From contig MFZX01000031.1 of NCBI GenBank assembly GCA_001788095.1, forward strand, positions 9,736 through 73,735: a DNA stretch of 64,000 nucleotides, given 5' to 3'. The notes beneath the pieces were generated by a model. The model was given only the letters and a program-made list of their open reading frames with translations. It made no database searches and had not been told where the DNA came from. Position 1 is the stretch's first letter. Each line of letters opens with the position of its first letter. Origin of the DNA: Candidatus Roizmanbacteria bacterium RIFCSPHIGHO2_12_FULL_37_23. Its GTDB lineage: Bacteria; Patescibacteriota; Microgenomatia; UBA1406; HO2-37-13b. Of this stretch, positions 13,166-39,338 are shown in pieces. A program made the translations under genes and the position numbers.

Positions 13166-13170
13166 AATTA

Positions 13171-13196
13171 CCCAAGGTTGTTTAGATTCGTAACCT
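13171..13196 (+). repeat. R1 repeat, partial variant a, at the left edge of GC-rich island 1
   Basis: cccaaggttgtttagattcgtaacct. Confidence 0.4.
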
Positions 13197-20277: not shown

Positions 20278-20284
20278 AAAAGTA

Positions 20285-21478
20285 TTATAACAGCTCTAAC
20301 ATCTCAGCAGCCCAGATCATGCCAGTATGTGCCCCATGATAAAAGGGTCTTCCACGATAAGGTTGACGTCCATCAGGTTCAAATACTTCAACATATGTCC
20401 CCTCTCTTAAAATCCACTGTTCATATTCTTGTAGCTGAGCTTTTGCATATGCAGGATCAACGCGCGCGGCCAATTGGATATAACGGGGACCAAGCATTGA
20501 CCAAACTGTTGTTCCTTGAAAATTAGGCGCAACTGCTTGAGCAATTAATTCCAAATCTCGATCATCGTGATCCTCAGCAACATGGTACCGTAATGCAAAA
20601 GGATGATCAAATCCTGCATCTCGAATAGTATCGATGGTCGAGGCAAGCATTTTATCATCTGAAACGATACCGAGCATAAACGGTATTATTGCTGTATCTC
20701 CAGAAAGTTGCGGTCGTTTTCCTGAATCATTATCAATAAAGTGCTTTCCATTCCAAAAACGTTCCAAAAACGTCGACCGTAAGTCAATACCACAAAGTGG
20801 GTTTTCAATGGAATCAGCAAAATCGTTATCAAGAAGTTCTTGAAATTTAAGAAGAAAAGCATTTGATGATGAGGTTGCTCGACGAGTAATCATGTCTTTG
20901 ATTGTGGGAAAATGACGATCTCGGCGAACACCATTAGTTTTCGGATCGTAGACTTTTGCTACATATGCATCAACCTGTGCCTGAAGAAAATCGCCGTAAC
21001 TATCTAGTATTTCTTGCGCTTGGAGGGTTTTGATTGATTGTAATAACCATACCATTGAATCAGCCGCATATGAATACACATTGAATGGTAAGCTATTTGG
21101 TGCAATAGTCGTAGAGACACGACCGTATAAAGCGTACTGTTGCATTGCCCATTGAAGTGATTGTCGAGCTTGCTCCTCATATCCGGCGCGCATTAAATCT
21201 GCAAGAACAAATCCAAAATCGCGAATCCAGAATTGATTTATTGGTGATTCTCCAGCTTCAAAATAAACTCCATTCCAACGCTTCTCAACAATTGCTCTAC
21301 AGATATCACGCGCAGAACCGGCATATCGAGTAGGTTCTGGAGTACGGATATGTTGTGGTACTATTCTCGCCCCTTCTTGTCCAAGAAGAACCATTTGCCT
21401 AACAAGCGAAGGCCCTACGCGCTCATTGAAACTCATATATTTCAGACGCCTGTGCGTTGAGCCAATAGTATACAGCAC
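20285..21478 (-). CDS. hypothetical protein, possibly (alpha/alpha)6-barrel glycosyl-hydrolase-like
   Basis: 397 aa. Aromatic-rich; WIRDFGF-like motif. Weak assignment. Start may be the MSFNERV methionine at 21436. Confidence 0.35.
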   Translation of the reverse strand: MLYTIGSTHRRLKYMSFNERVGPSLVRQMVLLGQEGARIVPQHIRTPEPTRYAGSARDICRAIVEKRWNGVYFEAGESPINQFWIRDFGFVLADLMRAGYEEQARQSLQWAMQQYALYGRVSTTIAPNSLPFNVYSYAADSMVWLLQSIKTLQAQEILDSYGDFLQAQVDAYVAKVYDPKTNGVRRDRHFPTIKDMITRRATSSSNAFLLKFQELLDNDFADSIENPLCGIDLRSTFLERFWNGKHFIDNDSGKRPQLSGDTAIIPFMLGIVSDDKMLASTIDTIRDAGFDHPFALRYHVAEDHDDRDLELIAQAVAPNFQGTTVWSMLGPRYIQLAARVDPAYAKAQLQEYEQWILREGTYVEVFEPDGRQPYRGRPFYHGAHTGMIWAAEMLELL

Positions 21479-21552
21479 GAGAGGTAGTAAGTATTAGGTA
21501 TTACGTATCGTCTTGTTTTCTTCTTCAGCTCATGCTACTCTAATAGTATCCA

Positions 21553-24192
21553 ATGAGTAAAAGAAAATTTGTTATCGCTTCAGTAATTTTAGGTATTTCT
21601 CTATTGCTTGCTGTTGTATATTTTTATCAAAGTTCTTCAACACAACAAGGACACCCTTCTTCAACCAGGATCCAAGAAGCTCTTAGAAATAAAAAAATAG
21701 CTCAATATTTTGAGGATCTCGTTCCTCCTGAAACAGCTTCATCTGAGAATACACTTTCTTTTATTATTGATTCATATGAGCTTGGTGCCCAACTTCCTTC
21801 TATTCCTCAGAACCCTCGTATTTATGCATTGAAAACCCGATTCACTCATGCAGAGATAAATCAACTCGCTACAAAACTCCTTGGACCTAATGTGTCAACA
21901 GAATACCTCAGTGATAAAAATTTCGTTTCTCTCAATTCCAAACATGGCACGTTAACATTTAACACAACAACGGGAGCATTTTCGTTTTATTCACTTCTCA
22001 CAAAACTCCCGTTTCAAACAACACAAGATCAACCTGATATTCGACCACAACTTACGCAGTATCTAAAAAATTCACTAGGGGTTATTGACGATACCATAAC
22101 AGCAACTGCATATTACACAAGGAGCACTAATTCTAATATCACGTATTATGAATTCCATCGTGACTGGGATAAAGTAGGACTCGCTATTATTAATCCGGTG
22201 GGTGTTATAAACCTGCCTACTTCCAAGAGCGTAAGTCAACTGAGTCTCACGGGATTTGATGAATTTAGCCCAGATGATACAACAATTACATTTGCTTCAG
22301 ATGTTCCGGGGAAAAAGAGAAATGATGATTTTAACACCATGACCGTCGCTGTTTCACAGGAAGGTTATGTCGTTTCTATTGATTCAAACATCCGGCTTAT
22401 AACTGAAGAAAGAACGCTCGCTGATGCAGGACTAACACTCCTTGATCCAAATAAAGTTATCGATGAAATTAAACATGACGGCTCATACTTCAATATCGCC
22501 CTTCCTTCAGGAGAGGGATTTATAAGTCTTGAAAAAACATTCCCGAATCATGAACTTAAAGCAAAAGTTGCAGAAATTACTGACGTTTCTTTAGTGTTTA
22601 CAGAAAAACACGGGGATGTTACTCAAAAATATTTATATCCTTCATATATTGTTCGCGGTGTTGCTGAAACAGAAACAGGGGTGCGAACAAAATTTGCGCA
22701 AACTGTACCAGCTATAAATGATATTAGTAAATTATCTCAAACATCATTATTGGAAAAGGTTATATCGTATTTTGGGAAATTCTCAGTTAAGCAAGTCTAT
22801 GCACAATCGGATTCCCAAAAATGTTTTACTGAAATTATCTATCCTTGTGGAGAAGGCGAAGATTCTGTTCAGTGTACTTTTACGTTAAAAAGATGCATCA
22901 CACCTACTACAACAGTGCCTACGGTAACAGTCCCTACAGCAACTCCATATATAACACCTCCTCAGGAACCTTCATCAACCCCTGTACCAGATCTTCCAGG
23001 ACCTTGTGTTTTATATCGACTAAATGAAGAGGATGAATATGATATTGTAGAACTTGCAAATGAATTTGCTATTGATGCTCCTGATCTTAATAGTCCGATT
23101 AATCCTTTTGGGTGGAGGTATGATATACCAGGCATAGGTGTTATTGCTTATTTCCCTGTTTCTCTTCCTGATGGTCCTATTGCTGTAAGAATTTCACGAA
23201 GCACAAATGCGCGACCAGGAACACCATTGGCCGGGGGTGAAGTGCTTTATGGAAGGCAATTTGATTCTCTACAAATACAGGTAGAGTTAGAAGTAGCAAT
23301 TCGCGCGGCACAAAGAATTCAGCAAGATCCTTCACTTCTTAGATATATCGATCATCCTCGTTATCAAGTGGAAATGATTGATCTAAATCATATATTTCCT
23401 GAAGTTGGGTACGACATGCTTGATAATAGAATCATGAATAGTTTTGGAATACATTGGAATATCCAGCAGGCAGTGGAAGAATATAACGGCTGGACACTCG
23501 AACAACTAGCAAACACTACACAAGAACTTGCTGAGGTGCCCACGAGAATGCTTATTGGAGCTCGAAGAGCAACATATGGAGATAATCCAATAGGTCGGGA
23601 TGCTAATCAATTTGTTTTAGATGCTCGATGTAAATTCTTATCGCCTGTATCACCACTCTTGTATTTTTATCCTGAACAACCATTACGTATAACATTATCC
23701 TTCTTGCATCCGTATGTGGTTTATGGTGAACCCATTCTTAACAAAAATCTTGTATTTAACGCATATCCATCGGGAAAATTATTATTTGATGGGATTGAGA
23801 GAGATAAATATCATTACGAATATAGCTCTGTGAAATTTGACAAACCACAACAAGGATGGATTATTCCTTCTGAAAATGTCTTTTCTTATCTTCAATACAA
23901 TCTTGCCCCGAAGCTTGGATTACAAGATAATGAGTTGACTGACTTAATACAAGATGTAAGAGGGAGTCTTGCTGGTAAAAATCAAAAACCGTATATGTTT
24001 ATCGGACTTATTCCTGAGAAACAATTGGGTGAAAAACTTCCCTTTGAGATCAATCCAAAGCCCCAGAATATATCGAGAAAACATCTGTATATTTCTTTTA
24101 TGGATACAAAAAACTATGTAGAAGCTCCAAAAGTTACATCAATACATCGAAATGGATTTGATGTCGTAGAACTTGGCGTTTATGTTGAATAA
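21553..24192 (+). CDS. large secreted surface protein with Thr/Pro-rich linker (TPTTTVPTVTVPTATP)
   Basis: N-terminal TM/signal, 879 aa, PT linker. Confidence 0.5.
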   Translation: MSKRKFVIASVILGISLLLAVVYFYQSSSTQQGHPSSTRIQEALRNKKIAQYFEDLVPPETASSENTLSFIIDSYELGAQLPSIPQNPRIYALKTRFTHAEINQLATKLLGPNVSTEYLSDKNFVSLNSKHGTLTFNTTTGAFSFYSLLTKLPFQTTQDQPDIRPQLTQYLKNSLGVIDDTITATAYYTRSTNSNITYYEFHRDWDKVGLAIINPVGVINLPTSKSVSQLSLTGFDEFSPDDTTITFASDVPGKKRNDDFNTMTVAVSQEGYVVSIDSNIRLITEERTLADAGLTLLDPNKVIDEIKHDGSYFNIALPSGEGFISLEKTFPNHELKAKVAEITDVSLVFTEKHGDVTQKYLYPSYIVRGVAETETGVRTKFAQTVPAINDISKLSQTSLLEKVISYFGKFSVKQVYAQSDSQKCFTEIIYPCGEGEDSVQCTFTLKRCITPTTTVPTVTVPTATPYITPPQEPSSTPVPDLPGPCVLYRLNEEDEYDIVELANEFAIDAPDLNSPINPFGWRYDIPGIGVIAYFPVSLPDGPIAVRISRSTNARPGTPLAGGEVLYGRQFDSLQIQVELEVAIRAAQRIQQDPSLLRYIDHPRYQVEMIDLNHIFPEVGYDMLDNRIMNSFGIHWNIQQAVEEYNGWTLEQLANTTQELAEVPTRMLIGARRATYGDNPIGRDANQFVLDARCKFLSPVSPLLYFYPEQPLRITLSFLHPYVVYGEPILNKNLVFNAYPSGKLLFDGIERDKYHYEYSSVKFDKPQQGWIIPSENVFSYLQYNLAPKLGLQDNELTDLIQDVRGSLAGKNQKPYMFIGLIPEKQLGEKLPFEINPKPQNISRKHLYISFMDTKNYVEAPKVTSIHRNGFDVVELGVYVE

Positions 24193-25093
24193 TAAAATTT
24201 TTGCCATTATCGGAATTGTATTTCTAGCTCTTACAGGACTTGTCACGTATTCGTATATACAAGTTAGACAACAAAGAGATGTGGGTGCCGCAGATATACT
24301 TCCACAACAATGTTTAGCTCTGGGAGGAATTGTATATCCAAGTCAATCGTGTCCTCCTGGATATACACAAAAAGGAACGGTCGATGATGGCTCGCAAACA
24401 GGTGACCTCGGTGATATACAAAAAATTGGTCAGGGAGTATGCTGTGTACCAGATGTTATTCCGCTCACGCTTACTCCATCACCCACTATAACAGGAGCTC
24501 CAAGTAGTTCTCCCACACCTACTCCTGTGATATCAACAACAATAACACCAACACCTACTCCAATGTGCCCGTTGTGTGAGCCAGTAAAAATTCTGCCTAT
24601 TTCTGGAACTGATACGTTGCCAAGTTGTGATCCGACATGTGATTTCACCATTATTCAGGATCCCAATAGCTGTCCTGCACTCAATGAAACAGTAAGTATA
24701 AGACTTGATGAAGACGGTTGTATCACCTACGATGTTGATGGAACTAAGATTACGAAATGTGGAAAAAAGGGTGACGTCCTTACTTTTCCTGCTTCTCGAT
24801 CGGGTCATATTATCATATCTTTAACATGTAATCGCCCAACAGCACAGCAACAACAAATGAGTTTCCCAACCGGAACCGGTGATGGTATAAAAATTCCAAG
24901 CACTCTCATTACACCACCTATTGATCTTGTGTGTAGAAAAGAATTGACTGTTGTTTGTTTTACACCTACACCTACAATAACTCCTCCTCTCACCATAACA
25001 GTTTCACCAACACCTGGTTTTTGTAAGTTGCCGGTACCAACATTACTATTTCAGTGTGCGTATGGTTGTGTACGGATAAACGTTCCACAGTGA
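24173..25093 (+). CDS. secreted Cys-rich protein with PT linkers
   Basis: N-terminal TM, multiple Cys pairs, TPSPTITGAPSSSPTPTP linkers. Confidence 0.45.
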   Translation: MAFMLNNKIFAIIGIVFLALTGLVTYSYIQVRQQRDVGAADILPQQCLALGGIVYPSQSCPPGYTQKGTVDDGSQTGDLGDIQKIGQGVCCVPDVIPLTLTPSPTITGAPSSSPTPTPVISTTITPTPTPMCPLCEPVKILPISGTDTLPSCDPTCDFTIIQDPNSCPALNETVSIRLDEDGCITYDVDGTKITKCGKKGDVLTFPASRSGHIIISLTCNRPTAQQQQMSFPTGTGDGIKIPSTLITPPIDLVCRKELTVVCFTPTPTITPPLTITVSPTPGFCKLPVPTLLFQCAYGCVRINVPQ

Positions 25094-25094
25094 T

Positions 25095-26228
25095 ATGCAT
25101 ATAACAGAGGAACTTAAAAATAAACTAATACTTATCTCTGCACTAACTTCTGTAATTGGTGTATTGGCTGGTTTTATGCTTATTCAAAGAACACTTACTC
25201 TTGAGAATAGAGCCAATACTGATCTTGTGTGTAATCTGAGTTCTGCGCGCTGTATAGTAAATCTCCTGCCTGGAGAACAATATAGTGATTTTTATATTAA
25301 AGTCAATGAAATTGATGGTGATGTAAAAAGTATGATTAAACAAGGCGGGTTAAATGAAGTTGCAGTTTTCTTTGATGCACAACAAGGAAAAGAATATGAA
25401 TGTGAAGTTATTCCGAGTGATCGTTCAAATCCTCTATGTGTTCCTACACGAACAAGAGGTAAAGCACCTTTGTGCGTTACACCAAGTCCATCTCCCACAG
25501 GACCAGTTACACCAACTATTGAACCACCAACTCCTTCAATCTCTGAACCACCAACTATAACAATTACAGAATCACCATCAGTAACACCTCCAACTCCTAC
25601 AGTAACTATTACTACCCCAACTCCTACGATAGTACGCGCATGTCCAGTAAGTGATAGAGATGGAGAATTAGAGCTTATACCGCTTCCCTTACCAACTGGC
25701 ACTGCAAAACTCGTATGTAGATTTAGTCAAAAGTGGTTGTGTAGAATACCAAATAGTTTGCTGGAAAAACTCCAGGATTCACGGTTCCGGCTTGTGATTT
25801 ATAAAAATGGTTCTTTGTTTAGTACTGGTCCTTTAAATGGGCAAGAACATGAATTTGAAGCTGAAAATGGTTCAGACTATACGTGCAGATTAGAACTTCT
25901 TGATGAAAATGATTCGGTTTTAGATGTGTGTCTTTCACTTACTGGGTCTCAAGAATGTGTTCTCAATCGTTCTTTACTAACACCGACCATAATGCAATTA
26001 CAGCAGCAAAGAAACTTTAACCAAAATAATTATCAGAATAATCAAACACTTTGCGTCCGGTCACAAGGAGATTTAAACAATGATGGAAGCGTGAATATGG
26101 ACGATGTTACCTTGTTTAGACAGGCTTATTCAAACAGGATACAAAGTTCTTCAGGAGATCTGAATTGTGATAGTAGAGTAGATTTGTCTGATTGGTTAAT
26201 CTTAGGAAGTGGCGTACTTGTAAAATAA
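25095..26228 (+). CDS. secreted protein with PT linkers and C-terminal dockerin-type repeat
   Basis: DLNNDGSVNMDDV...GDLNCDSRVDLSD (D-x-N-x-DG-x-V-N calcium-binding dockerin repeats). Confidence 0.5.
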   Translation: MHITEELKNKLILISALTSVIGVLAGFMLIQRTLTLENRANTDLVCNLSSARCIVNLLPGEQYSDFYIKVNEIDGDVKSMIKQGGLNEVAVFFDAQQGKEYECEVIPSDRSNPLCVPTRTRGKAPLCVTPSPSPTGPVTPTIEPPTPSISEPPTITITESPSVTPPTPTVTITTPTPTIVRACPVSDRDGELELIPLPLPTGTAKLVCRFSQKWLCRIPNSLLEKLQDSRFRLVIYKNGSLFSTGPLNGQEHEFEAENGSDYTCRLELLDENDSVLDVCLSLTGSQECVLNRSLLTPTIMQLQQQRNFNQNNYQNNQTLCVRSQGDLNNDGSVNMDDVTLFRQAYSNRIQSSSGDLNCDSRVDLSDWLILGSGVLVK

Positions 26229-26260
26229 ACCGTTTTGTGTTTTCCAACCCTCGGTGTTAT

Positions 26261-26288
26261 AACCCTCGGGGTTGTAACCCCGAGGGTT
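26261..26288 (+). terminator. hairpin aaccctcgggg-ttgt-aaccccgagggtt after the dockerin protein gene
   Basis: 11-bp perfect stem. Confidence 0.5.
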
Positions 26289-26501
26289 AGTTGATACATG
26301 TCTACGAATTGACTTTTCACAACCTTCTATAGTATATTACCTATTATAGGATTATTTTTTGGTGGCATGATTGCGTTTTTCGCACGTGCTGCGTTCTTCG
26401 CGCTCATGCCGCACTTTGAAAGAAACGGCAATTGATATACGAGATACTACTTGCATACGTCTCGTGTGTAGGGTCGAATTGTGGGAAGAATATACCACTA
26501 T

Positions 26502-26580
26502 TGTCATCCTGAATCCGCCTACTGGCGGAATTCAGGATCTCGATTATTCCCGGAATCCGACCCTTCACACCGAATGGTGT
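26502..26580. repeat. second copy of the MITE terminal hairpin (tgtcatcctgaat-ccgcctactggcgga-attcaggatctcga), reverse orientation relative to 3384-3396
   Basis: Matches the reverse complement of 3350-3396. Confidence 0.45.
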
Positions 26581-26672
26581 GTGTAAGTGGTATTAGTGCA
26601 AGGAGAGGAGGTATACAACCAAATACCCGAAGGTCCCGCTAGGGACCCGTATCTGCTGTCATCCGCATCCCC

Positions 26673-27302
26673 GTGAGGGGAAACCCGAAGGAGACGGCCT
26701 TGAGACTCAGGTTCCTCACGCTACTGCTTGCAGTAGCACTCGTGACCACGTTGGCGGCGGCCGCAGCTCCCATGCTCGCGAGCGCCCCGAACGTCAACGA
26801 GACGACGATGGCGAACGCACGCGCGCCTGCTGCGTGGACCAACGACTCCGTGGGGATGAACGACAGGGCGACTTTCGCAAGGATGAGCGCGTCTCGCGCG
26901 GATCCGGTGCCGATCGTGGCCTTCAGCTCGTCGATCTCCGGCCAGGGCATGGTGTACGAGAGCCTGCGGGGCTACACGACTTCGAACGACGAGATCAACG
27001 GCACCGTCTACGCGACGAACGACGGCCGAGCGATCTACATCTACGACCAGAACGCGCTGAGCTCGACGACAACCGCACGGAACGGCACCGCGGCGTGGAC
27101 GAGCGAGAACACGAACGGAACGGCGACGGTGAGCGCTACTGCATGGTCTGATGACCACTACGTAAGGATGAGCCAGCTGGCGCTGAAGATGCCTACCTTC
27201 ACGGCCGACTTCGTGGCGAACGGCGCGACGGCTCGCGTGACCCCCTGGCGGACTGACCAGGTGGCGATCGCGGCAGTGGTGACGGTGGAGCAGCTGCTCT
27301 AG
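26673..27302 (+). CDS. secreted protein with signal peptide and many N-glycosylation sequons; haloarchaeal-like composition (GTG start likely)
   Basis: LLLAVALVTTLAAAAAP signal. NETT, NDSV, NGTV, NGTA sequons. Acidic, Thr/Ala-rich. Confidence 0.4.
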   Translation: MRGNPKETALRLRFLTLLLAVALVTTLAAAAAPMLASAPNVNETTMANARAPAAWTNDSVGMNDRATFARMSASRADPVPIVAFSSSISGQGMVYESLRGYTTSNDEINGTVYATNDGRAIYIYDQNALSSTTTARNGTAAWTSENTNGTATVSATAWSDDHYVRMSQLALKMPTFTADFVANGATARVTPWRTDQVAIAAVVTVEQLL

Positions 27303-27348
27303 CACACGATCAGGAGCGCTGATCTCCGCTGACCTCCTCCAGTAGTTA

Positions 27349-27410
27349 GGGACCGTCCCGGGCCAGTGGCCCTTGACGCGCCGGTTCTCGGTACACGCCG
27401 GGACGGTCCC
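27349..27410. repeat. 13-bp perfect inverted repeat gggaccgtcccgg / ccgggacggtccc with 36-nt spacer
   Basis: Read directly from sequence. Confidence 0.6.
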
Positions 27411-27531
27411 CGAGGAGTTTCATCGAGTAAAATGCATTCATCAGCATTCATCCTCCCCGGCCCCCCGCTCAAGTGCAACACCACTGAGCCAACAACGGAC
27501 TGGGCACCGTTGGATTGGGGGACCATTTGTA

Positions 27532-27603
27532 CCCGGCAGGCCGCTTGGACGCGGAGAGATCGCTCGCGCGATCAATTTGTTCCGTTGAGAACGGCCTGCC
27601 GGG
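27532..27603. repeat. 12-bp perfect inverted repeat cccggcaggccg / cggcctgccggg with 48-nt spacer
   Basis: Read directly from sequence. Confidence 0.6.
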
Positions 27604-27875
27604 AAAACTTTCGGCCAGATGGCGATGACAGGATCAGAAGCCTGCAATAACGCTTACTCGTTCGGCACGAAACGGAACGCCTCCCTTTCGCGTCGACTGG
27701 CTGAGTCGGCTTCTGAGACATCACACGCTGCGCGCGTGCGTTCACTATAGTCAAGCTCGTGCACAGTTTCATCTGAAACTGGCTTGACAAGACTCTGGTC
27801 TCGCGCGCTTCTATCTTTCGACGGGAGATAGAAAGACCAGGGTCTGGTTTCACAGACTCGTATATCAACAGAAAA

Positions 27876-27918
27876 CCCCGATGCAATCGGGGGCCGCTCG
27901 TCACGTATGTGACTTTTT
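27876..27918 (+). terminator. tandem hairpins ccccgat-gcaa-tcgggg and gtcac-gtat-gtgac followed by TTTTT
   Basis: Read directly from sequence. Confidence 0.5.
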
Positions 27919-28075
27919 GATAATTCCCTTCTTTGGGTTTTATTGATTTTTCGCGTGTGTGCGAGCGGTGCCGTTTCTGTTGTTTCTTTTTACATCCTTC
28001 CGTTTGACCTTCCTTATTTGCTTTTCATTAATTGCTTTTCATTAATTGTTTTTCTTTATTTGCTTTTTTCTAATT

Positions 28076-28135
28076 CCCCGAGGTTGCGAGCGTAACCAAC
28101 CTTCGATGTTGGTTTGTACTCCAACCTCCCGGGTT
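28076..28135 (+). repeat. R1 repeat variant b inserted in the AT-rich spacer within GC island 2
   Basis: ccgaggttgcgagcgtaaccaaccttcgatgttggtttgtactccaacctcccggg. Confidence 0.6.
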
Positions 28136-28202
28136 CTAATAACTTTTTCATTTTTATTCTTCTAGTTTCTATTTTTCAATGCTTCAAAATCAATTCTTCA
28201 AA

Positions 28203-28250
28203 TCCCAAGGTTGCGAACGTAATCAACCTCTAAGGTTGATTTGTTTTCAG
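28203..28250 (+). repeat. R1 repeat variant a (ccaaggttgcgaacgtaatcaacctctaaggttgatttg)
   Basis: Same architecture as variant b; outer stem aggttg/caacct plus inner hairpin. Confidence 0.55.
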
Positions 28251-28689
28251 GGAAGTTGAATGATATAATAATATGTTTTCCGTCCTATGGGACGGCTTTA
28301 TTTTAAGCAATCCTCAAGCGTAGACATGTATTTTGCTATATGTTGTATGCTCTAGGATAAAGCTCTTTAACAAAACGCACAATAGCAAGAACCTTTTTCC
28401 GTATTTATAGTTGAATAAGTGGGGCCTGTCTCGCTCTCCCTCCCAGCCGGTGCTCCCTCGACACGAGTCGAGGTCCGCTCCGTCGGGAGACCCTTCCGAG
28501 CGAGCCACCCACACAGCGGTATAAATCACTTCAATTATAGATCTGGAAAAAGGTTCTCATATGCCCAAGAGGAGGTGATGAAAACGGGCGCATGTCCCAA
28601 GTCGCAGTTTCTGAGAACCACTGCAAAACCACCTTACCCGCCTTTCGACCTCAGGTCGAAAACACGAACGCCAAGGAGTAGTTAGACAC

Positions 28690-28956
28690 ATGGACGCGAC
28701 CGAGACCGTGTTGGATGATCGTGACGACGGCGAGCGCGAGCCCAGCGACGAGCCCGAGGAGACGGACGGCGATCCCGAGGACGGCGAGGAGACCGACGGC
28801 GACGGCGACGGCGGCGAGACCGGCGACGAGGACGAGCCCGGCGACGAGGAGCCCGAGGACCCGGACGAGGGCGACGACGGTGTCGAGACCGGCGAGGAGA
28901 CCGACGGCGACGGCGGCGAGACCGATCCCGAGGTCCGCCACGAGGAGGACGACTAG
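28690..28956 (+). CDS. extremely acidic small protein (D/E/G/T-rich, 88 aa), haloarchaeal or halovirus-like
   Basis: MDATETVLDDRDDGEREPSDEPEETDGDPEDGEETDGDGDGGETGDEDEPGDEEP... Confidence 0.35.
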   Translation: MDATETVLDDRDDGEREPSDEPEETDGDPEDGEETDGDGDGGETGDEDEPGDEEPEDPDEGDDGVETGEETDGDGGETDPEVRHEEDD

Positions 28957-29167
28957 CGGTGCCGGTCTTCGGCTCTAACAGAGGGGTCTTCGATCCCCAG
29001 GAGACTGCCCTTTCTCACAACGGACCTTGGGGTTACGGGATCCCACACGACCCACCGCGCGACACGTCGCACAAGGACAAGGGTGACAAGCCCGAGAACG
29101 AAGGCGACGACGACCGCGCCACAACCAACTAACCACCGCCGCTTGAGCCACCCGGCTTGAGCTAGTA

Positions 29168-29240
29168 GGGCGGGACCGCCGGTCCCCAGTCCTCCACAGG
29201 TCTGCTGGCAAACCAACCAGCTCACCCGGCGGTCCCGCCC
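29168..29240. repeat. 15-bp perfect inverted repeat gggcgggaccgccgg / ccggcggtcccgccc with 43-nt spacer
   Basis: Read directly; the motif gggcgggacc recurs at 29352. Confidence 0.6.
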
Positions 29241-29305
29241 GTCGCTATCATATTTCGGCACATGCCGAATCCCTGCCCCACGTAAGCGCCGGTTTCCTGG
29301 GCCAC

Positions 29306-29378
29306 AGGGAGCCACCAAACACGCAAGCTCTGGCTTGCAAACGGTTTCTGGGGCGGGACCGGTGTTTGGTGGCTCCCT
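29306..29378. repeat. 17-bp perfect inverted repeat agggagccaccaaacac / gtgtttggtggctccct with 39-nt spacer containing an inner hairpin gcaag-ctctgg-cttgc; lies at the GC-island / AT-rich boundary
   Basis: Read directly from sequence. Confidence 0.6.
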
Positions 29379-29532
29379 TGGGGGCTTTGCTATTTGTGCT
29401 GCACGACACCGAAGGGTTTACGAGATACTGGCAAGAGTTTGTTTCTTGCTTTTTTGTTTTTTTTGTTTTGTATCTTGTTGTTTGTTTGTCCCTTTGGTGT
29501 CGTGTGTTGTAGTTTTAATCATATCTTAATCT

Positions 29533-30654
29533 TTGTCTGCTATTATCTTTCCCATGTCAGACCAAACCCCTTACTACGTCGCCTTCTCATATATGCTGGG
29601 TATTGGGCCTGTTCATTTTGCACAACTTATGCAACGTTTTGGAGATCCAAAATCTGCATATCAAGCAACAACAAAAGATCTTTATAAAATTTTAGGAAGA
29701 AATCTCGCGGAAAAATTTGATACCTTCAGAAAAAAATGTATACCTCATAGTATAGTAAAATACTTGTTAACAAAAAATGTACAAATATTACACCAAGGAT
29801 CTTCATATTACCCAAAAAAACTCGTTCATATACCTGATCCTCCTATTTGTTTATATCTTAGAGGAAATATAAATATCCTACATGAACATCCTGATGATTT
29901 CATAGCAATTGTTGGTACACGAAAACCTAGTTCATATGGCAAAGAGACTACACGACAATGTGTGAAATTATTATGCGAATATGACTATACCATTATTTCT
30001 GGGATGGCTTTAGGGATTGACAGCATAGCCCATTCCTGCGCATTAGACAATGGAGGAAAAACAATAGCTGTCTTAGGATGCGGAATTGAAGTAGTATATC
30101 CCCACCAAAATACACACTTATTTAAAAGGATTTTAGATTGTAATGGCGCTGTTATAAGTGAATTTCCTCCTCCGATGACCACGATGAAAGGTCTTTTTGT
30201 TTCACGCAATCGTATTGTTTCTGGTCTTTCTAAGGCTGTCATTGTCGTAGAGGGTACAGAAAAATCAGGAACTCTCATAACTGCGCGTTATGCAGCAGAA
30301 CAAGGGAGAGACGTCTTTGCAATCCCAGGTGAAATAAATTCTCCCCTCTCTAGAGCCCCAAACTTACTTATTAAAAACGGGGCTACGATCATTACTTCTC
30401 CCCAAGATATTCTTGAATCATACAACACTGAGATAAAAAGTCATGTTCGAAAAACTATCTTAAACTCTGTGGATGCACATGAAAAAATGGTTCTTGAACA
30501 ACTCATCCATGAATCTTCATATATCGACACCATTGCCCGCACAGTGAATATGCCAATTCCACACATAACAAGCATACTTACATCACTTGAAATCAAGGGA
30601 TTTATTGCAAAAAACGATAAAGGAGAATATTATATAACGAATGGATATACGTAA
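29533..30654 (+). CDS. dprA: DNA processing protein A (DprA/Smf)
   Basis: Rossmann-like DprA core: VISGMALGIDSIAHSCALDNGGKTIAVLGCGIEVVYP...; C-terminal winged helix. Confidence 0.8.
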   Translation: MSAIIFPMSDQTPYYVAFSYMLGIGPVHFAQLMQRFGDPKSAYQATTKDLYKILGRNLAEKFDTFRKKCIPHSIVKYLLTKNVQILHQGSSYYPKKLVHIPDPPICLYLRGNINILHEHPDDFIAIVGTRKPSSYGKETTRQCVKLLCEYDYTIISGMALGIDSIAHSCALDNGGKTIAVLGCGIEVVYPHQNTHLFKRILDCNGAVISEFPPPMTTMKGLFVSRNRIVSGLSKAVIVVEGTEKSGTLITARYAAEQGRDVFAIPGEINSPLSRAPNLLIKNGATIITSPQDILESYNTEIKSHVRKTILNSVDAHEKMVLEQLIHESSYIDTIARTVNMPIPHITSILTSLEIKGFIAKNDKGEYYITNGYT

Positions 30655-31069
30655 AATTAAGTCATTCCAACAAATCGAAGAATTTATCGAGGTTTATTAT
30701 AGACTTCTGCCTTCGTTACCGCTTAATATAAGAAAAAGCATCGCTACATACCTTCCGCCCTTGGCCGCTCTTGTGGGGATTTATCATATTATCGTAGCTC
30801 TCTTACCTCCTCCTTACTCTATTCTCGAATCTTATACGTTCTTTTCAATTAATTCCATCATGCTACGCGGTGTTCTTATTGTTCTAGGACTTGCACTTAT
30901 TACGTCATATAAAAATCTCGCGCAGCTTTCTCTAAAAGGCTGGTACAACCTCTACTACATCGCCTTTTTCCACTTCTTTCTGAGTCTTATTTTCTTTAAT
31001 CTCACTTACTTTATTTCCCCTCTTATCGTATGGTACGTGTTGTTTCAGGCGAAACGATTTTATAGATAA
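30641..31069 (+). CDS. small membrane protein, unknown function
   Basis: 142 aa, 3-4 hydrophobic helices. Confidence 0.35.
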   Translation: MDIRKIKSFQQIEEFIEVYYRLLPSLPLNIRKSIATYLPPLAALVGIYHIIVALLPPPYSILESYTFFSINSIMLRGVLIVLGLALITSYKNLAQLSLKGWYNLYYIAFFHFFLSLIFFNLTYFISPLIVWYVLFQAKRFYR

Positions 31070-31125
31070 ATCTTATAAGAAGTCACAAGTATGTCTATTC
31101 GCATTTGTGACGTAACTATAAAGAC

Positions 31126-32274
31126 ATGACTCGCAAAAGAAAAGGAAATTACAAAAAGAGGTTCATATTCTTACTACTTGTAGGAGCGTTAGTCATAATT
31201 GGGCTTTATTCAACTAAGAATCTTTACCAAAAAACTATCGTAGATATACCTAAGATCACCAAAATACAACAACTCATTTCACCTATTCCAACTCAAACTA
31301 ACTCATTCCAACTTTTTTCAACCTCTTTATTTGTCCCTTACTGGACCCTCAAAAATACTGAGTTCAATTCTCCAATCTCTCTGCAAGACGGCGGCTTCAA
31401 ATCTCAAATCAACACGCTTATCTACTTTGGTATAACCCCTACCGAAACGGAAATTAACAAAAATGAGCCGGGGTTCTATAATTTGTCAACTTTTAGTATT
31501 TCAAAAAACTCATATCGCGCCTTGCTGACGATCCGGATGTCAAATGAGGATGTTACTTCAACGATTCTCGAAAATGAGACTTCTCAAAAAACAATCATCC
31601 AAGAAACTCTCGAAATAGCTTCCCAATATGATTTTGACGGTATAGTGTTAGATTTAGAACATTCTGTTCTCCCTACATCAGACATTATTCAACAGATCAC
31701 AGATTTCGTAGAAACATTCTCATTGCAAACAAAACAGCAAGAATTAACATTTGGTATGACTATATACGGTGATACATATTATCGTCAAAGACCATATGAT
31801 CTTAAGGCTTTAGATCAATACGTTGATCAATTCTATATCATGGCATACGACTTTCATAAAAGTTACGGTGAACCGGGTCCAAATTTTCCCCTTAAAGGAA
31901 AAGAAATATATGGATACGATATGGAAATAATGATTCGTCAGCTCATTTCTGATATTGACGCTCAAAAACTTACTATCCTGTTTGGTCTGTTTGGTTATGA
32001 TTGGTCAGTGGACGACCAAAATCGCCCGTTGAAACCAGCTCAATCGCTTACATTACGTCAGATCAAAAACCGCTTTCTCGAATCTTGTCCATTCACACCA
32101 TGCTCTATACAAAGAGATAATCTTTCAGCGGAAACAAGCATACAGTATGCAGACGAGACTGGCCAAAAACATGTCGTATGGTTTGAAGATGAAACCTCAG
32201 TAGGTGAAAAAGTAACATTCTTGAACTCGAATTCCATCTCTAATATAGGATATTGGGCATGGGGATACTATTGA
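31126..32274 (+). CDS. membrane-anchored GH18-like (chitinase-fold) protein
   Basis: N-terminal TM; DFDGIVLDLEH resembles the GH18 DGxDxDWE catalytic motif (one Asp replaced). Confidence 0.45.
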   Translation: MTRKRKGNYKKRFIFLLLVGALVIIGLYSTKNLYQKTIVDIPKITKIQQLISPIPTQTNSFQLFSTSLFVPYWTLKNTEFNSPISLQDGGFKSQINTLIYFGITPTETEINKNEPGFYNLSTFSISKNSYRALLTIRMSNEDVTSTILENETSQKTIIQETLEIASQYDFDGIVLDLEHSVLPTSDIIQQITDFVETFSLQTKQQELTFGMTIYGDTYYRQRPYDLKALDQYVDQFYIMAYDFHKSYGEPGPNFPLKGKEIYGYDMEIMIRQLISDIDAQKLTILFGLFGYDWSVDDQNRPLKPAQSLTLRQIKNRFLESCPFTPCSIQRDNLSAETSIQYADETGQKHVVWFEDETSVGEKVTFLNSNSISNIGYWAWGYY

Positions 32275-32660
32275 ATTCCTCTCCTTTTTCTGCCACAATG
32301 AATTCTATGAACCAGTCATCGGGGACGTCATTGAATTTCACAAAATTACCTCCTCTCAATGCAAAATCCGGAAACAAAAAGACACTTCTTATTATATTAA
32401 TACTTGTATTTTTTGTTATTGCCGTGCTCATAGGAGTTTATCTCGTTTCCCAAAGACAAACGCTACAAACACCAGCTCAAACCATAGAAGAACTACAAGC
32501 CGAACCAACACCTGCCGATAATCAAAATTCACCACCAGAAGAAGAAAATCCACCACCAACTGAAAATCCTCCAGATAATCCGCCTACAGAACCACCTTCC
32601 GGTGATAATGCATGTATATTAGAAGTTCATGTTACCTGTCAAGGTTGTAGTGGAAACTAA
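32253..32660 (+). CDS. small secreted Pro-rich protein
   Basis: TM anchor then PPEEENPPPTENPPDNPPTEPP. Confidence 0.3.
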   Translation: MGMGILLNSSPFSATMNSMNQSSGTSLNFTKLPPLNAKSGNKKTLLIILILVFFVIAVLIGVYLVSQRQTLQTPAQTIEELQAEPTPADNQNSPPEEENPPPTENPPDNPPTEPPSGDNACILEVHVTCQGCSGN

Positions 32661-33468
32661 AACAAAAGCAGCACATATCAATACAGGAGCTGGAAAAATC
32701 AGCCGGAGAAATCTTGTTATACTCATAGCTCTTTTTATCGTGCTTATTGGAGTGGTGACAGGATTGCTGGTAGTACAACAACCTCAAAACATTAAGCCTG
32801 AAGCTGCTGGGGGTGCATGTCCAGCTGAAGCACTTACATGTAGCTGGAACCGCGAGGCCGGAGTAAGCTACGAATATACTATTTTTGATATTACTAATGG
32901 ATCACTACCCGTTAAGCAGGGATCTGTTCCAGCCTCAAACGAGACCGGACAGGTTAATATTTATCATCAACCCGAACCTAATCACACATATCGATGCGCA
33001 GTAACAGCCTCAAATGGATGTAGTGCAGAAGGCCAAGCTTCTTGTCAAGTTACCGAAGCTCCTCCTACTAGTCCCCCCCCTGCAACTGAAACACCTACAG
33101 CTGCTCCAACAGAAGAGATTCAACCTATTGATCAGGGTGTAAGTACTTCGCCTTCACCAACAGCAAGTCCATCTGGCAGACTAACACCCACGGATATAAT
33201 CGTTGTTCATGCAACAAATACACCCACGCCTCAAATAAAAACAGGTGGTACTGGTGGATCAAATATCACTGTAGCAACTAAAACCCCAACACCAACTACA
33301 AGTACAAATAAAGTAGTTTCTCCAACCACTTCAAGCTCATCTTCGAGCTCAAAAACAACAATTACCCCTCGAGCAACAATCACGCTCCCAGCAACTGGAA
33401 TAGCCGAACTCTCTGTAGTAATTCTCCTTTTCGGCGTACTCATTATCGCCGTAGGCTTAGTACTTTAA
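32629..33468 (+). CDS. surface protein with PT/S-rich linker and C-terminal LPATG sortase-type sorting motif followed by a hydrophobic tail
   Basis: ...ITLPATGIAELSVVILLFGVLIIAVGLVL*. Confidence 0.45.
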   Translation: MLPVKVVVETKTKAAHINTGAGKISRRNLVILIALFIVLIGVVTGLLVVQQPQNIKPEAAGGACPAEALTCSWNREAGVSYEYTIFDITNGSLPVKQGSVPASNETGQVNIYHQPEPNHTYRCAVTASNGCSAEGQASCQVTEAPPTSPPPATETPTAAPTEEIQPIDQGVSTSPSPTASPSGRLTPTDIIVVHATNTPTPQIKTGGTGGSNITVATKTPTPTTSTNKVVSPTTSSSSSSSKTTITPRATITLPATGIAELSVVILLFGVLIIAVGLVL

Positions 33469-33510
33469 TAAGCTCTCCTAAGTTCACTTAAAACCAACAG
33501 CAGAAAAGCA

Positions 33511-33533
33511 GGTGGCAGGACTGGAAGGGCTCC
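33511..33533 (+). other. conserved GC-rich intergenic motif ggtggcaggactggaagggctcc (copy 1)
   Basis: 21/23 identical to 41636-41658. Confidence 0.35.
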
Positions 33534-33918
33534 CGCCAGCGCGCAGTCGTTACAATACGAATAGTTGTGCGAGCACTGGTGGGAGGGAAAGTCCTGACGG
33601 AATCTGCTTTAATTGGGTTTTGAAGATAATAAACTTTCCACTTGACTTCTCCTATAATATAATGTTATGATGAGGGTATAAAAGGCATTTTGGATTGGTA
33701 GGTTAAAGATAATTGAACTCGAATAGGATGCATGATATAATATCCTATAGGATTAATTATATTTACCCTATAAATCGATATCATTATTATGATTAACACT
33801 ACCAATTCAGTTTGTTCTCTCCTGCCTAAGCCGGTCTTACCGGACATGGCGCATATATTAACGGAAAGTCTTATAGCTTCTTGTTATAAAGGGCTAAAAC
33901 TTATATTGTAATATACAT

Positions 33919-36519: not shown

Positions 36520-36563
36520 TGTTACTACTTGCTTTTCAACGCATATCTTTTTAAGATGAAAGT

Positions 36564-38372: not shown

Positions 38373-38423
38373 GGGAGGAATGGAGATTGGAAATTTGAGA
38401 TTTGAGAATTAAAGAACTGAAAA

Positions 38424-39227: not shown

Positions 39228-39246
39228 TGCTCTAATCCCAATGTCC

Positions 39247-39310
39247 CCTAGGTTGTGAACGTAACCAACCTTCGATGTTGGTTTGTACTCCAACCTCTGT
39301 ACCTGAGGCT
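39247..39310 (+). repeat. R1 repeat variant b immediately upstream of argS; generates the spurious N-terminal extension of the track ORF
   Basis: ctaggttgtgaacgtaaccaaccttcgatgttggtttgtactccaacctctgtacc. Confidence 0.6.
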
Positions 39311-39338
39311 GGAAAAATCTGATACAATAATACCGATT

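What the first reader, a model, noticed from the sequence alone, without database searches (positions are those of the whole stretch)
26590..29400. GC-rich island with haloarchaeon-like genes inside an AT-rich bacterial locus, colonised by host repeats
About 2.8 kb with clearly >60% GC sits between AT-rich host genes. It encodes a signal-peptide protein full of N-glycosylation sequons and Ala/Thr/Asp, and an 88-aa protein that is almost entirely Asp/Glu/Gly/Thr. Both compositions are characteristic of salt-in halophiles or their viruses, not of the Lys/Ile-rich host proteome. An AT-rich 0.5-kb spacer inside the island carries two copies of the host CAACCT-hairpin repeat, which argues the island is resident in this genome rather than an assembly chimera. 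Cross-domain acquisition or a captured virus/plasmid fragment are both possible.
Basis: partly seen in the sequence, partly recalled or inferred. Interest (0 to 1): 0.75.

Follow-up and report, generated by a model that had tools for sequence, protein, structure and literature searches.

The report
Conserved GC-rich hairpin island in Roizmanbacteria
The GC-rich stretch is real and belongs to this groundwater CPR bacterium, but it is not a haloarchaeal import: a sister lineage carries the same island at the same spot, and its best-conserved parts are hairpin-dense non-coding RNA wrapped around two fast-evolving orphan genes.

Summary
Observation confirmed. Window 26309-29553 is a compositional island: parts reach GC 0.57-0.73, against 0.386 ± 0.049 elsewhere. 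ORF1 has GC3 0.85, against a window median of 0.28.

It is not an assembly chimera. Four NCBI MAGs and independent ENA and JGI contigs span both junctions.

The haloarchaeal or viral origin is not supported.
- ORF1 matches only itself among 5.8 billion and 1.84 billion proteins.
- Its pI is 5.3 and D+E is 7.5 %.
- It has bacterial sigma-70 and Shine-Dalgarno signals.
- The source is a freshwater-aquifer Candidatus Roizmanbacteria.

The only sister lineage (DprA 55 % identical) carries a collinear 3.3-kb GC-rich island in the same metG|dprA slot.

Between the two lineages the ORFs are almost unalignable. The two promoters and about 1.9 kb of non-coding sequence are conserved, over-structured (z -4 to -7.6) and keep their hairpins: 20 compensatory pairs against 1 broken.

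Best reading: two host-promoter-driven transcription units. An exported, fast-evolving protein and a polyacidic peptide sit inside long conserved structured leaders and trailers. Their function, and why the coding GC has not decayed, remain unknown.

The parts
26309..26338 (+). Promoter of transcription unit 1 (TTGACT-N18-TATATT)
   Evidence: Best sigma-70-like match in the region, 10 of 12. Both hexamers are identical in the sister lineage L016.
26345..26699 (+). Leader 1 (~355 nt). It has a 5'-proximal hairpin, a conserved single-stranded block at 26411-26443 (GCACTTTGAAAGAAACGGCAATTGATATACGA), a ~160-nt rod-like hairpin, and the AAGGAG SD at 26688-26693.
   Evidence: Fold z -7.41. In the window-wide scan, 26401-26640 scores z -7.6 on + and -4.9 on -. 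The single-stranded block is 41 of 43 identical in L016, and the L016 rod is shortened at its apex. One compensatory pair lies in the AGGGTCG/CGACCCT stem.
26700..27302 (+). ORF1: 200-aa exported orphan protein. TTG start 7 nt after the SD; the annotated GTG start at 26673 gives 209 aa.
   Evidence: GC1-3 are 0.54/0.55/0.85. There is no excess RNA structure (z +0.65). The signal-peptide helix is the only confident part of the AF2 model. It has no homologue anywhere. The positional orthologue in L016 is 310 aa; it shares only the signal peptide, M[AS]NARAPA and the C-terminal QLL.
27303..27925 (+). 3' structured region 1 (M2): an array of perfect hairpins, including 27349-27361/27398-27410 and 27532-27543/27592-27603
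   Evidence: z -5.5 on + and -8.6 on -. The L016 counterpart scores z -6.7. Collinear blocks are 74-78 % identical. Compensatory changes occur in hairpins D, E and G and in a long-range helix. Window 27420-27595 is a lineage-specific GC-rich expansion.
27926..28240 (+). T-rich tract and AT-rich spacer. Contains the most conserved motif, TGCGAGCGGTGCCGTTTCTGTTGTT (27960-27984), and two host repeats (28077-28117, 28204-28244).
   Evidence: The motif is 24 of 25 identical in L016 and was used to retrieve the sister-lineage contigs. Repeat copies occur elsewhere in the window. In L016 the spacer has no such repeats and instead carries small hydrophobic ORFs.
28261..28269 (+). Extended -10 promoter of transcription unit 2 (TGATATAAT)
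   Evidence: Identical in both lineages. It is followed at 28280-28295 by a conserved 5'-terminal hairpin.
28275..28689 (+). Leader 2 (~415 nt). It has the stem 28388-28400/28545-28557, with a 114-nt GC-rich apical expansion found only in the window lineage, and the SD at 28673-28678.
   Evidence: z -4.67. Scan window 28321-28560 scores z -7.4. The stem is kept through a C-G to T-A compensatory change.
28690..28956 (+). ORF2: 88-aa polyacidic, low-complexity peptide
   Evidence: GC1-3 are 0.87/0.39/0.92, with D+E 47 of 88. The positional counterpart in L016 is a 66-aa peptide with D+E 22 of 66, unalignable in sequence. Strain variants differ by in-frame indels of 30 nt and 24 nt.
28957..29420 (+). 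3' structured region 2 (M4): hairpins 29168-29182/29226-29240 and 29306-29322/29362-29378
   Evidence: z -7.04 on + and -4.10 on -. Scan window 29041-29280 scores z -6.1 on + but -1.0 on -. The L016 counterpart scores z -5.6. Hairpins K and L carry compensatory changes, including a U-G wobble valid only on the + strand. The annotated minus-strand ORF 28953-29225 is not conserved in L016.
29402..29504 (+). Conserved closing stem (CACGACACCGAAGGG / CCCTTTGGTGTCGTG) around a U-rich loop
   Evidence: Inverted repeat I15, 93 % complementary. GGTGTCGTGT is identical in L016, and its partner arm covaries.
29541..30654 (+). dprA with its own -10 (TATTAT, 29541-29546) 7 nt before the ATG at 29554. This is the right border of the island.
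   Evidence: Pfam DNA_processg_A. Relatives without the island have only 14-41 nt between metG and dprA, also with a -10-like box just before the ATG.

Best explanation
The island is a long-resident, vertically inherited locus. It is specific to one small Roizmanbacteria clade and sits in the variable slot between metG and dprA.

It consists of two transcription units driven by host-type promoters. Each has the same layout:
- a 5'-terminal hairpin;
- a 350-415-nt conserved structured leader;
- a short orphan gene with a very GC-rich reading frame;
- a 450-620-nt array of conserved hairpins ending in a U-rich tract.

Unit 1 encodes a Sec-exported, very fast-evolving protein of about 170 aa once mature. 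It is probably surface or extracellular. Unit 2 encodes a polyacidic, disordered peptide.

Proposed mechanism (inferred, not shown): the GC-rich hairpin modules act in cis on their own transcripts. They would serve as nuclease-resistant armour, regulatory structure, or both. The other genes seen here have almost no leaders.

The high GC of the non-coding modules is what stable RNA helices require. The still higher GC of the reading frames must be actively maintained, either by selection on the mRNA or by biased gene conversion. It has survived a divergence at which neutral sites are saturated.

Shown: residency, orthology in the sister lineage, conserved promoters, excess structure, compensatory changes, orphan status.
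Inferred: transcription start sites, translation, cis-stabilising function, the cause of coding GC.
For: Residency. Four MAGs plus ENA and JGI contigs span both junctions.

Orthology.
- L016, L005, L011 and L019 belong to one sister lineage. DprA is 55 % identical, the downstream 142-aa protein 65 % and GH18 53 %.
- They carry a collinear island of 3314 nt, against 3325 nt here, between metG and dprA.
- The 142-aa marker protein that defines the clade forms only two clusters among the 5.8 billion clusters searched.

Variable slot. More distant relatives have an empty slot of 14-41 nt, or an unrelated 118-137-aa gene of ordinary composition.

Conserved signals. The TTGACT/TATATT promoter, the TGATATAAT extended -10, the leader block and the 25-nt motif are conserved.

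Structure.
- Window modules score z -7.4, -5.5, -4.7 and -7.0, while ORF1 scores +0.65.
- L016 modules score -4.3, -6.7 and -5.6.
- On the + strand, the island holds the four most negative of the 266 scan windows (240 nt each) in the 64-kb window.

Covariation. In 14 hand-curated helices (117 pairs), 93 are invariant, 20 changed on both sides with pairing kept, 3 changed on one side, and 1 is broken. RNAalifold independently finds 7-13 compensatory pairs per block.

Strand. Promoters, SD sites and ORFs are all on +. The z-score asymmetry at 29041-29280 is -6.1 on + against -1.0 on -.

Proteins. A signal peptide is present in both lineages, and ORF2 is polyacidic in both although the sequences cannot be aligned.

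GC not ameliorated. ORF1 GC3 is 0.85 against host genes at 0.20-0.25 here, and 0.70 against 0.44-0.50 in L016.
Against: - Only two lineages exist, so covariation rests on pairwise comparison of helices partly chosen by eye.
- Most stems are perfect Watson-Crick pairs with few G-U pairs. For 3' region 1 the minus strand folds better (z -8.6 against -5.5). DNA-level hairpins or an antisense RNA are therefore not excluded.
- There are no expression data.
- RNA structure does not explain why the ORFs, the GC-richest parts, are GC-rich: they have z near 0.
- ORF2's SD spacing is long (11-14 nt). Its in-frame indels could simply reflect a repeat unit that is a multiple of 3.
- No intrinsic terminator is conserved in both lineages.
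Confidence: 0.45

Rival explanations
1. Ancient horizontal acquisition from a high-GC bacterium or its mobile element, not a haloarchaeon, into the common ancestor of the two lineages. The host then domesticated it. The present GC is a partly retained donor signature.
For: Extreme compositional deviation, Lys-poor and Arg-rich proteins, and GC-ending codons. The island lies in a slot that gains and loses genes in related lineages. The genes are orphans. Another GC-raised gene, plsY, lies next to a recombinase and a tRNA at 51-53.6 kb.
Against: No donor homologue was found in any database searched. The island has no integrase, att-like direct repeats or tRNA. Its promoters are host-type and conserved. 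At 53-65 % protein identity in the flanking genes, synonymous sites should be saturated, so an unmaintained donor GC3 should have decayed. Instead it is 0.85 and 0.70. This argument rests on inference from amelioration theory.
Confidence: 0.25
2. The GC-rich modules are large trans-acting structured RNAs, a new RNA class. The ORFs are secondary or make the transcripts dual-function.
For: Non-coding blocks are better conserved than the ORFs: 74-78 % identity with runs of 24-41 identical bases, against ORFs that cannot be aligned. They show strong excess structure and compensatory changes. GC-rich intergenic segments of AT-rich genomes are a recognised signature of structured ncRNAs (PMC6429828).
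Against: There is no Rfam match. The modules always flank ORFs that keep a signal peptide or a polyacidic character in both lineages. Stems are long and perfect rather than the irregular helices of complex-folded RNAs. Large lineage-specific insertions and deletions are tolerated.
Confidence: 0.15
3. GC-biased gene conversion at a recombination hot spot drives the GC enrichment. Frequent allele exchange at a fast-evolving surface-protein locus pushes GC up most where the sequence is most variable.
For: GC is highest in the most divergent parts, the ORFs (0.65 and 0.73), and intermediate in the conserved flanks. The only two SNPs in 5.2 kb of strain variant L003 lie in ORF1, and both are G in the majority form and A in the variant. 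Host repeats and a variable neighbourhood surround the locus.
Against: A GC3 shift from about 0.22 to 0.85-0.92 exceeds, to my knowledge, anything ascribed to biased conversion in bacteria. The AT-rich spacer between the two blocks is unaffected. Population diversity at the locus is very low. The model does not explain the conserved hairpins.
Confidence: 0.08
4. Cross-domain capture of haloarchaeal or halovirus genes.
For: GC-rich codons and the polyacidic ORF2 resemble halophile composition.
Against: No homologues were found in protein, phage or plasmid searches. ORF1 has pI 5.3 and D+E 7.5 %. The island has bacterial SD sites and sigma-70 promoters. The host lives in a freshwater aquifer. 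An orthologous island is present in the sister lineage. GC-ending codon preference is shared by all high-GC organisms and does not identify haloarchaea (general knowledge).
Confidence: 0.02
5. The hairpins act at the DNA level, as recombination sites or palindromic mobile repeats, and the ORFs are exchangeable cassettes.
For: Stems of 12-17 bp are perfect Watson-Crick pairs. ORF bodies are replaced or unalignable between conserved ends. GC-rich hairpin expansions are lineage-specific.
Against: No integrase or transposase lies in or beside the island. The hairpin sequences occur nowhere else in the window. TU1 and TU2 share no repeat. Promoter, leader and SD are arranged in the order expected of a transcript.
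Confidence: 0.04
6. Assembly chimera joining reads from a GC-rich organism to a CPR contig.
For: Abrupt composition change.
Against: The same junctions appear in four MAGs and in independent ENA (megahit) and JGI assemblies. A diverged sister lineage has the same architecture. Host repeats and host-type promoters lie inside the island.
Confidence: 0.01

Closest known systems
GC-rich structured non-coding RNAs found as GC-rich intergenic regions of AT-rich genomes (the GC-IGR discovery approach, PMC6429828; examples recalled from memory: OLE, GOLLD, ROOL, raiA)
   Same: The non-coding sequence is GC-enriched in an AT-rich genome. Its predicted structure is far more stable than shuffled controls. 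It is conserved with compensatory changes and is better conserved than the neighbouring ORFs.
   Different: There is no match to any of the 4227 Rfam families. The modules flank ORFs that are even more GC-rich. The stems are long and perfect. Only two lineages are known. Large insertions and deletions are tolerated.
mRNA-stabilising terminal structures: 5' stem-loops such as the ompA, ermC and aprE leaders, and 3' inverted-repeat 'retroregulators' such as the Bacillus thuringiensis cry 3' end (recalled from general knowledge, not tested)
   Same: A hairpin sits a few nucleotides after the predicted start of each transcript. Arrays of stable hairpins follow the stop codon. Genes for exported or surface proteins are typical clients.
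   Different: The scale is far larger: 350-620 nt per module, against tens of nucleotides. The coding regions are GC-rich as well. No half-life or expression data exist.
Compositionally atypical genomic islands acquired by horizontal transfer
   Same: Strong GC and codon deviation, orphan genes, and a position in a slot that varies between related genomes.
   Different: There are no mobility genes, no tRNA target and no flanking direct repeats. The island is orthologous and collinear in the sister lineage. Its promoters are host-type. Its composition has not ameliorated.
Acidic proteomes of salt-in halophiles and their viruses
   Same: ORF2 is 53 % Asp+Glu. Codons are GC-ending.
   Different: ORF1 is only mildly acidic. 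Nothing shows sequence homology. The expression signals are bacterial. The habitat is freshwater. A polyacidic low-complexity peptide is not specific to halophiles.

Membership tests
Recently acquired genomic island (horizontal transfer) | Composition and codon usage deviate from the host | tested here: met
   GC reaches 0.72 against 0.386 ± 0.049 outside. ORF1 GC3 is 0.85 against a median of 0.28.
Recently acquired genomic island (horizontal transfer) | Absent from the closest relatives at the same locus | tested here: not met
   The only sister lineage has a collinear island in the same metG|dprA slot. Only more distant relatives lack it.
Recently acquired genomic island (horizontal transfer) | Mobility genes, tRNA target or flanking direct repeats | tested here: not met
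   There is no integrase or transposase ORF or Pfam hit in 26229-29553. The only tRNA lies at 53572. No flanking direct repeat was found.
Recently acquired genomic island (horizontal transfer) | Homologues in a plausible donor lineage | tested here: not met
   ORF1 matches only itself. tblastn and blastn against phages and plasmids gave nothing beyond low-complexity hits.
Haloarchaeal or halovirus genes | Sequence homologues in haloarchaea or their viruses | tested here: not met
   Searches gave no hit. Only the phage tblastn and the family libraries were run for it.
Haloarchaeal or halovirus genes | Acidic (salt-in) protein composition in all encoded proteins | tested here: not met
   ORF2 has a computed pI of 4.05, but ORF1 has pI 5.3 and D+E 7.5 %.
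Haloarchaeal or halovirus genes | Archaeal expression signals and a hypersaline source | tested here: not met
   The island has conserved sigma-70-type promoters and AAGGAG SD sites. The host is Candidatus Roizmanbacteria from aquifer metagenomes.
Any described RNA family (Rfam 15) | Covariance-model score at or above the gathering threshold | tested here: not met
   Only tRNA-Met passes in the whole window. Relaxed searches of both islands gave only chance-level hits with E of at least 0.36.
Conserved structured RNA (generic) | Folding energy well below shuffled controls in more than one lineage | tested here: met
   Window modules score z -4.7 to -7.4 and L016 modules -4.3 to -6.7. The ORF1 control scores +0.65.
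Conserved structured RNA (generic) | Base pairs maintained by compensatory substitutions | tested here: met
   Of 117 curated pairs, 20 changed on both sides and 1 is broken. RNAalifold finds 7-13 compensatory pairs per block. Caveat: only two lineages, and the helices were partly chosen by eye.
Conserved structured RNA (generic) | Evidence of transcription and defined RNA ends | not testable with these tools
   Only conserved promoter matches are available. No transcriptome data could be accessed.
Assembly chimera | Junctions unsupported outside one assembly | tested here: not met
   L002, L003, L004, L015, L018 and L020 reproduce the junctions.

The most novel reading that the evidence does not exclude
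The island represents an undescribed kind of bacterial locus. Kilobase-scale, GC-rich, hairpin-dense RNA modules form a new RNA class confined to a CPR clade. They carry small ORFs whose nucleotide composition is itself under selection. The transcripts would then function as exceptionally stable RNAs, or as RNAs that are exported. In the most extreme version they are tuned to act in, or be translated by, a GC-rich partner organism of this presumed episymbiont.

The evidence does not exclude this. Coding GC3 of 0.70-0.92 has been held in genomes with GC3 of 0.2-0.5 across a deep split, and RNA folding does not explain it.
Probability: 0.1. Interest if true: 0.85.

Novelty: new variant of a known kind. 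Interest (0 to 1): 0.5.

Why it matters
If the reading holds, this is a rare documented case in CPR bacteria of long, conserved, structured RNA modules built around lineage-specific orphan genes. The group has almost no described non-coding RNA biology.

It is also a case where a strong compositional anomaly is not a footprint of recent gene transfer. Something actively maintains it. That is a caution for island-calling by GC content.

The exported, fast-evolving ORF1 protein is a candidate surface or interaction factor of an organism thought to live attached to other cells.

The unresolved cause of the coding GC could be tested directly with existing aquifer metagenomes, metatranscriptomes and metaproteomes. 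The candidates are selection on the mRNA and biased gene conversion.

Tried and rejected
- Rfam at gathering and relaxed thresholds, on both lineages: nothing.
- Pfam, PHROGs, NCBIfam and PDB sequence searches of ORF1, ORF2, the L016 counterparts and the annotated minus-strand ORF: nothing meaningful.
- blastn and tblastn against phage and plasmid collections: only low-complexity matches of the GAC/GGC repeat to actinophage genes.
- AlphaFold2 on ORF1 without an alignment: pLDDT 36, unusable, so no fold search was run.
- Genome-contig scans with DprA and with the 22-nt motif: nothing. The species is not in that collection.
- Viral contig scans with two motifs: nothing.
- Metagenome motif hits L012, L013, L014 and L017 are unrelated GC-rich contigs, i.e. 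chance matches.
- Global MAFFT plus RNAalifold on whole modules was too disturbed by indels. I used sub-blocks and curated helices instead.
- Paralogy between the two transcription units: none detectable.
- RNAduplex of leaders against trailers was uninformative at these lengths.
- The first z-score scan timed out and was rerun more coarsely.
- An integron-like cassette reading was rejected: there is no integrase, and the hairpins are not repeated elsewhere.
- The annotated gene 28953-29225(-) was rejected as spurious: GC3 is no higher than GC1, and it is not conserved in L016.

Full report
**1.

- GC over 26590-29400 is 0.572, against 0.386 for the rest of the window.
- The profile shows two GC blocks, about 26492-27915 and 28375-29476. 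An AT-rich stretch separates them.
- GC by part: leader 1 0.48, ORF1 0.65, 3' region 1 0.57, spacer 0.36, leader 2 0.49, ORF2 0.73, 3' region 2 0.63, terminal T-rich tract 0.33.
- 300-nt windows outside the island average 0.386 (sd 0.049, max 0.597). The island maximum is 0.72, z = 6.9.
- A GC frame plot shows genuine coding periodicity for 26673/26700-27302(+), with GC3 0.80-0.92, and for 28690-28956(+). It shows none for 27300-27900, and only weak periodicity for 28960-29400.
- Among 52 non-overlapping ORFs of at least 100 aa, median GC3 is 0.28. ORF1 (0.85) is the extreme.
- ORF2 is 80 % D/E/G/T. ORF1 has a signal peptide and five sequons, but its pI is 5.3 and D+E only 7.5 %.
- The spacer carries two copies of a repeat that recurs at 39240-39297, 46253-46292 and 7138-7181.

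**2. Source, and why it is not a chimera**

- The window is part of NCBI GCA_001789875.1 contig MGAW01000012.1.
- The organism is Candidatus Roizmanbacteria, from the RIFCSP series of aquifer MAGs.
- The identical 209-aa protein is annotated in four MAGs.
- ENA megahit contig L003 equals window 24315-29529, with two mismatches. L002 equals 25065-27566. JGI contig L004 equals 29218-40654.
- Three further JGI contigs (L015, L018, L020) match the island region, each spanning part of it.
- Both AT/GC junctions are therefore reproduced by different assemblers and samples.

**3. No homologues, and nothing haloarchaeal**

- ORF1 finds only its own cluster among 5.8 billion proteins and in a filter-free phmmer scan of 1.84 billion representatives.
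- It has no Pfam, PHROG, NCBIfam or PDB match.
- tblastn against 50,697 phage and 72,556 plasmid records gives nothing.
- blastn gives only 70-72 % matches of the GAC/GGC repeat to actinophage genes.
- Both ORFs are preceded by AAGGAG.
- GC-ending codons are common to all high-GC organisms and cannot point to haloarchaea (general knowledge).

**4. The decisive comparison**

- DprA, immediately downstream, has its nearest relative at only 55 % identity (P0018).
- The contig carrying P0018 (L005) shows a GC-rich, hairpin-rich stretch upstream of dprA. It has recognisable blocks of identity to the window island.
- A metagenome scan with the most conserved 20-mer retrieved L011, L016 and L019. They are the same sister lineage, 99.3-99.98 % identical to one another.
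- L016 (14.1 kb) holds the whole locus in this order: PBP, metG, a 3314-nt island, dprA, a 147-aa gene, GH18. The window island (26229-29553) is 3325 nt.
- The two islands are collinear: promoter, leader, signal-peptide ORF, hairpin array, T-rich tract, AT-rich spacer, second promoter, leader, polyacidic ORF, hairpin array, T-rich tract, dprA.
- The 142/147-aa marker protein is 65 % identical between the two lineages. It forms only two clusters among the 5.8 billion clusters searched, so the clade has just these two known lineages.
- In more distant Roizmanbacteria the metG|dprA gap is 14-41 nt (L006, L009, L023). Alternatively it holds an unrelated 118-137-aa gene of ordinary composition, GC3 0.27-0.30 (L021, L022).
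- The slot is therefore variable, and the island arose or arrived before the two lineages split.

**5. What is conserved**

- Conservation is the inverse of what a captured gene would show. The ORF1 proteins (200 against 310 aa) align at 24 % over 96 residues (E = 0.08). They share only the signal peptide, M[AS]NARAPA and the C-terminal QLL.
- The ORF2 peptides cannot be aligned, but both are polyacidic.
- These signals are conserved:
  - the TU1 promoter, TTGACT-N18-TATATT (26309-26338);
  - a 33-nt single-stranded leader block (26411-26443);
  - the TU2 extended -10, TGATATAAT (28261-28269), with a hairpin just downstream;
  - the 25-nt motif at 27960-27984.
- Collinear blocks of 74-78 % identity are also conserved. 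By comparison, dprA and its downstream gene are 64 % identical at the nucleotide level.

**6. Structure**

- Window modules fold far better than dinucleotide shuffles: leader 1 z -7.4, 3' region 1 -5.5, leader 2 -4.7, 3' region 2 -7.0. ORF1 gives +0.65.
- The L016 counterparts give -4.3, -6.7 and -5.6.
- In a window-wide scan (240-nt windows, mean z -0.46, sd 1.7), the island's non-coding windows reach -6.1 to -7.6. Its ORF windows fall between -1.2 and +2.5.
- Helices persist through sequence change. Examples:
  - hairpin D outer stem, GTCAAGC/GCTTGAC, becomes GTCGGAA/TTCCGAC;
  - leader-2 stem, AGAACCTTTTTCC/GGAAAAAGGTTCT, becomes AGAACTTTTTTCC/GGAAAAAAGTTCT.
- Across 14 curated helices (117 pairs), 93 are invariant, 20 changed on both sides with pairing kept, 3 changed on one side, and 1 is broken.
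- RNAalifold on sub-blocks independently reports 7-13 compensatory pairs per block.
- The window lineage has extra GC-rich hairpins inserted at helix apices or between conserved blocks, at about 26465-26535, 27420-27595, 28416-28529 and 28960-29130.

**7. Strand**

- Promoters, SD sites and ORFs are all on the plus strand.
- Window 29041-29280 folds at z -6.1 on plus against -1.0 on minus.
- Hairpin L in L016 uses a U-G pair that is valid only on plus.
- Against this, 3' region 1 folds better on minus (-8.6 against -5.5).
- Most stems are perfect Watson-Crick pairs. A DNA-level role or an antisense RNA is therefore not excluded.

**8. Interpretation**

- The most economical reading is two transcription units with very long structured leaders and trailers around small orphan genes.
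- This contrasts with metG and dprA, whose ATG follows a -10-like box by 7-15 nt.
- I infer a cis-acting stabilising or regulatory role for the modules. This is by analogy with 5' stem-loop and 3' inverted-repeat mRNA stabilisers (general knowledge, untested).
- I infer a surface or extracellular role for the fast-evolving ORF1 protein.
- GC-rich intergenic segments of AT-rich genomes are a known signature of structured RNAs (PMC6429828). That accounts for the non-coding GC.

**9. What remains unexplained**

- The ORFs are the GC-richest parts yet show no excess structure.
- GC3 is 0.85 and 0.92 here, against host genes at 0.20-0.25. In L016 it is 0.70 and 0.63, against 0.44-0.50.
- The flanking proteins are 53-65 % identical. 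At that divergence synonymous sites should be saturated, so by amelioration theory this GC is being maintained rather than inherited from a donor.
- The candidates are selection on mRNA composition and GC-biased gene conversion. I could not separate them.
- Anecdotally, the only two SNPs in 5.2 kb of strain variant L003 lie in ORF1. Both are G in the majority form and A in the variant.

**10. Verdict**

- The claim of residency is confirmed.
- What is there is a clade-specific, conserved, hairpin-dense GC-rich locus with two orphan genes. It matches no described RNA or protein family.
- It is moderately interesting. It is a candidate new structured-RNA and mRNA architecture in CPR bacteria, and an example of a compositional island that is not recent transfer. 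However, it is known from only two lineages and lacks any expression or functional data.

Noticed in passing
window 52403-53396 (plsY 52504-53109; recombinase 51091-51933; tRNA-Met 53572-53642): There is a second GC-raised stretch (up to 0.63). It encodes a PlsY glycerol-3-phosphate acyltransferase (Pfam PF02660, E = 1e-32) with GC3 0.63 against neighbours at 0.27-0.30. A 68-aa Cys-rich ORF follows it. The stretch lies between a tyrosine-recombinase-like gene and the only tRNA of the window. This looks more like a classical acquired islet than the main finding does.
   Followed up: partly
window 13158-14089: A third GC-raised stretch (0.53-0.59) fills a 1.3-kb gap between an rpiA-like gene (12467-13165) and an rpe-like gene (14549-15250). 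It has no convincing ORF: only a 65-aa zinc-ribbon-like ORF on the minus strand with weak codon periodicity. Local fold z is about -4. It has no Rfam match and no similarity to the main island. It could be another structured RNA or a degraded insert.
   Followed up: partly
window 28077-28117, 28204-28244, 39240-39297, 46253-46292, 7138-7181; also the palindrome at 26240-26290: This is a family of ~40-58-nt hairpin repeats (core AGGTTGCGARCGTAAYCAACCT) scattered through the host genome. Two copies lie in the island spacer. A related palindromic element lies just left of the island promoter. The sister lineage has none in its spacer, so these copies arrived after the split.
   Followed up: partly
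window 18833-26228 versus L016, L006, L009, L021-L023: The metG|dprA slot varies among Roizmanbacteria. It can be empty (14-41 nt), hold a 118-137-aa cytoplasmic gene, or hold the GC island. In the window lineage about 6 kb more lies between metG and the island: a 383-aa gene and three secreted Pro/Thr-linker proteins, one with a dockerin domain. dprA and metG appear to be leaderless or nearly so.
   Followed up: partly
window 26432-26443 and 27857-27868: A 12-nt perfect complementarity (TTGATATACGAG / CTCGTATATCAA) links the conserved single-stranded leader block to the end of 3' region 1. This is a possible 5'-3' pairing of the TU1 transcript. In L016 both segments are conserved, but the pairing drops to 9 of 11.
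   Followed up: partly
window 27943-28095; L016 4813-5139(-): The most conserved 'non-coding' motif can be read in frame as FRV[C/Y]ASGAVSVV, at the start of a hydrophobic small ORF in both lineages. Two of the three nucleotide differences are synonymous in that frame. However, there is no SD, the start is TTG, and the rest of the peptide is not conserved. The T-rich tracts might encode small membrane peptides.
   Followed up: partly
window 28765-28794; L16rc 9845-9868: ORF2 varies between strains by whole repeat units: a 30-nt deletion in L015 and a 24-nt deletion in L005. Both are in frame.
   Followed up: yes
L014 1-24 (Ga0179593_1571283): A 2.6-kb contig of unrelated sequence (GC 0.53) begins with 24 nt identical to window 27959-27982. 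This may be a chance match extended by a few bases or a chimeric contig end.
   Followed up: no
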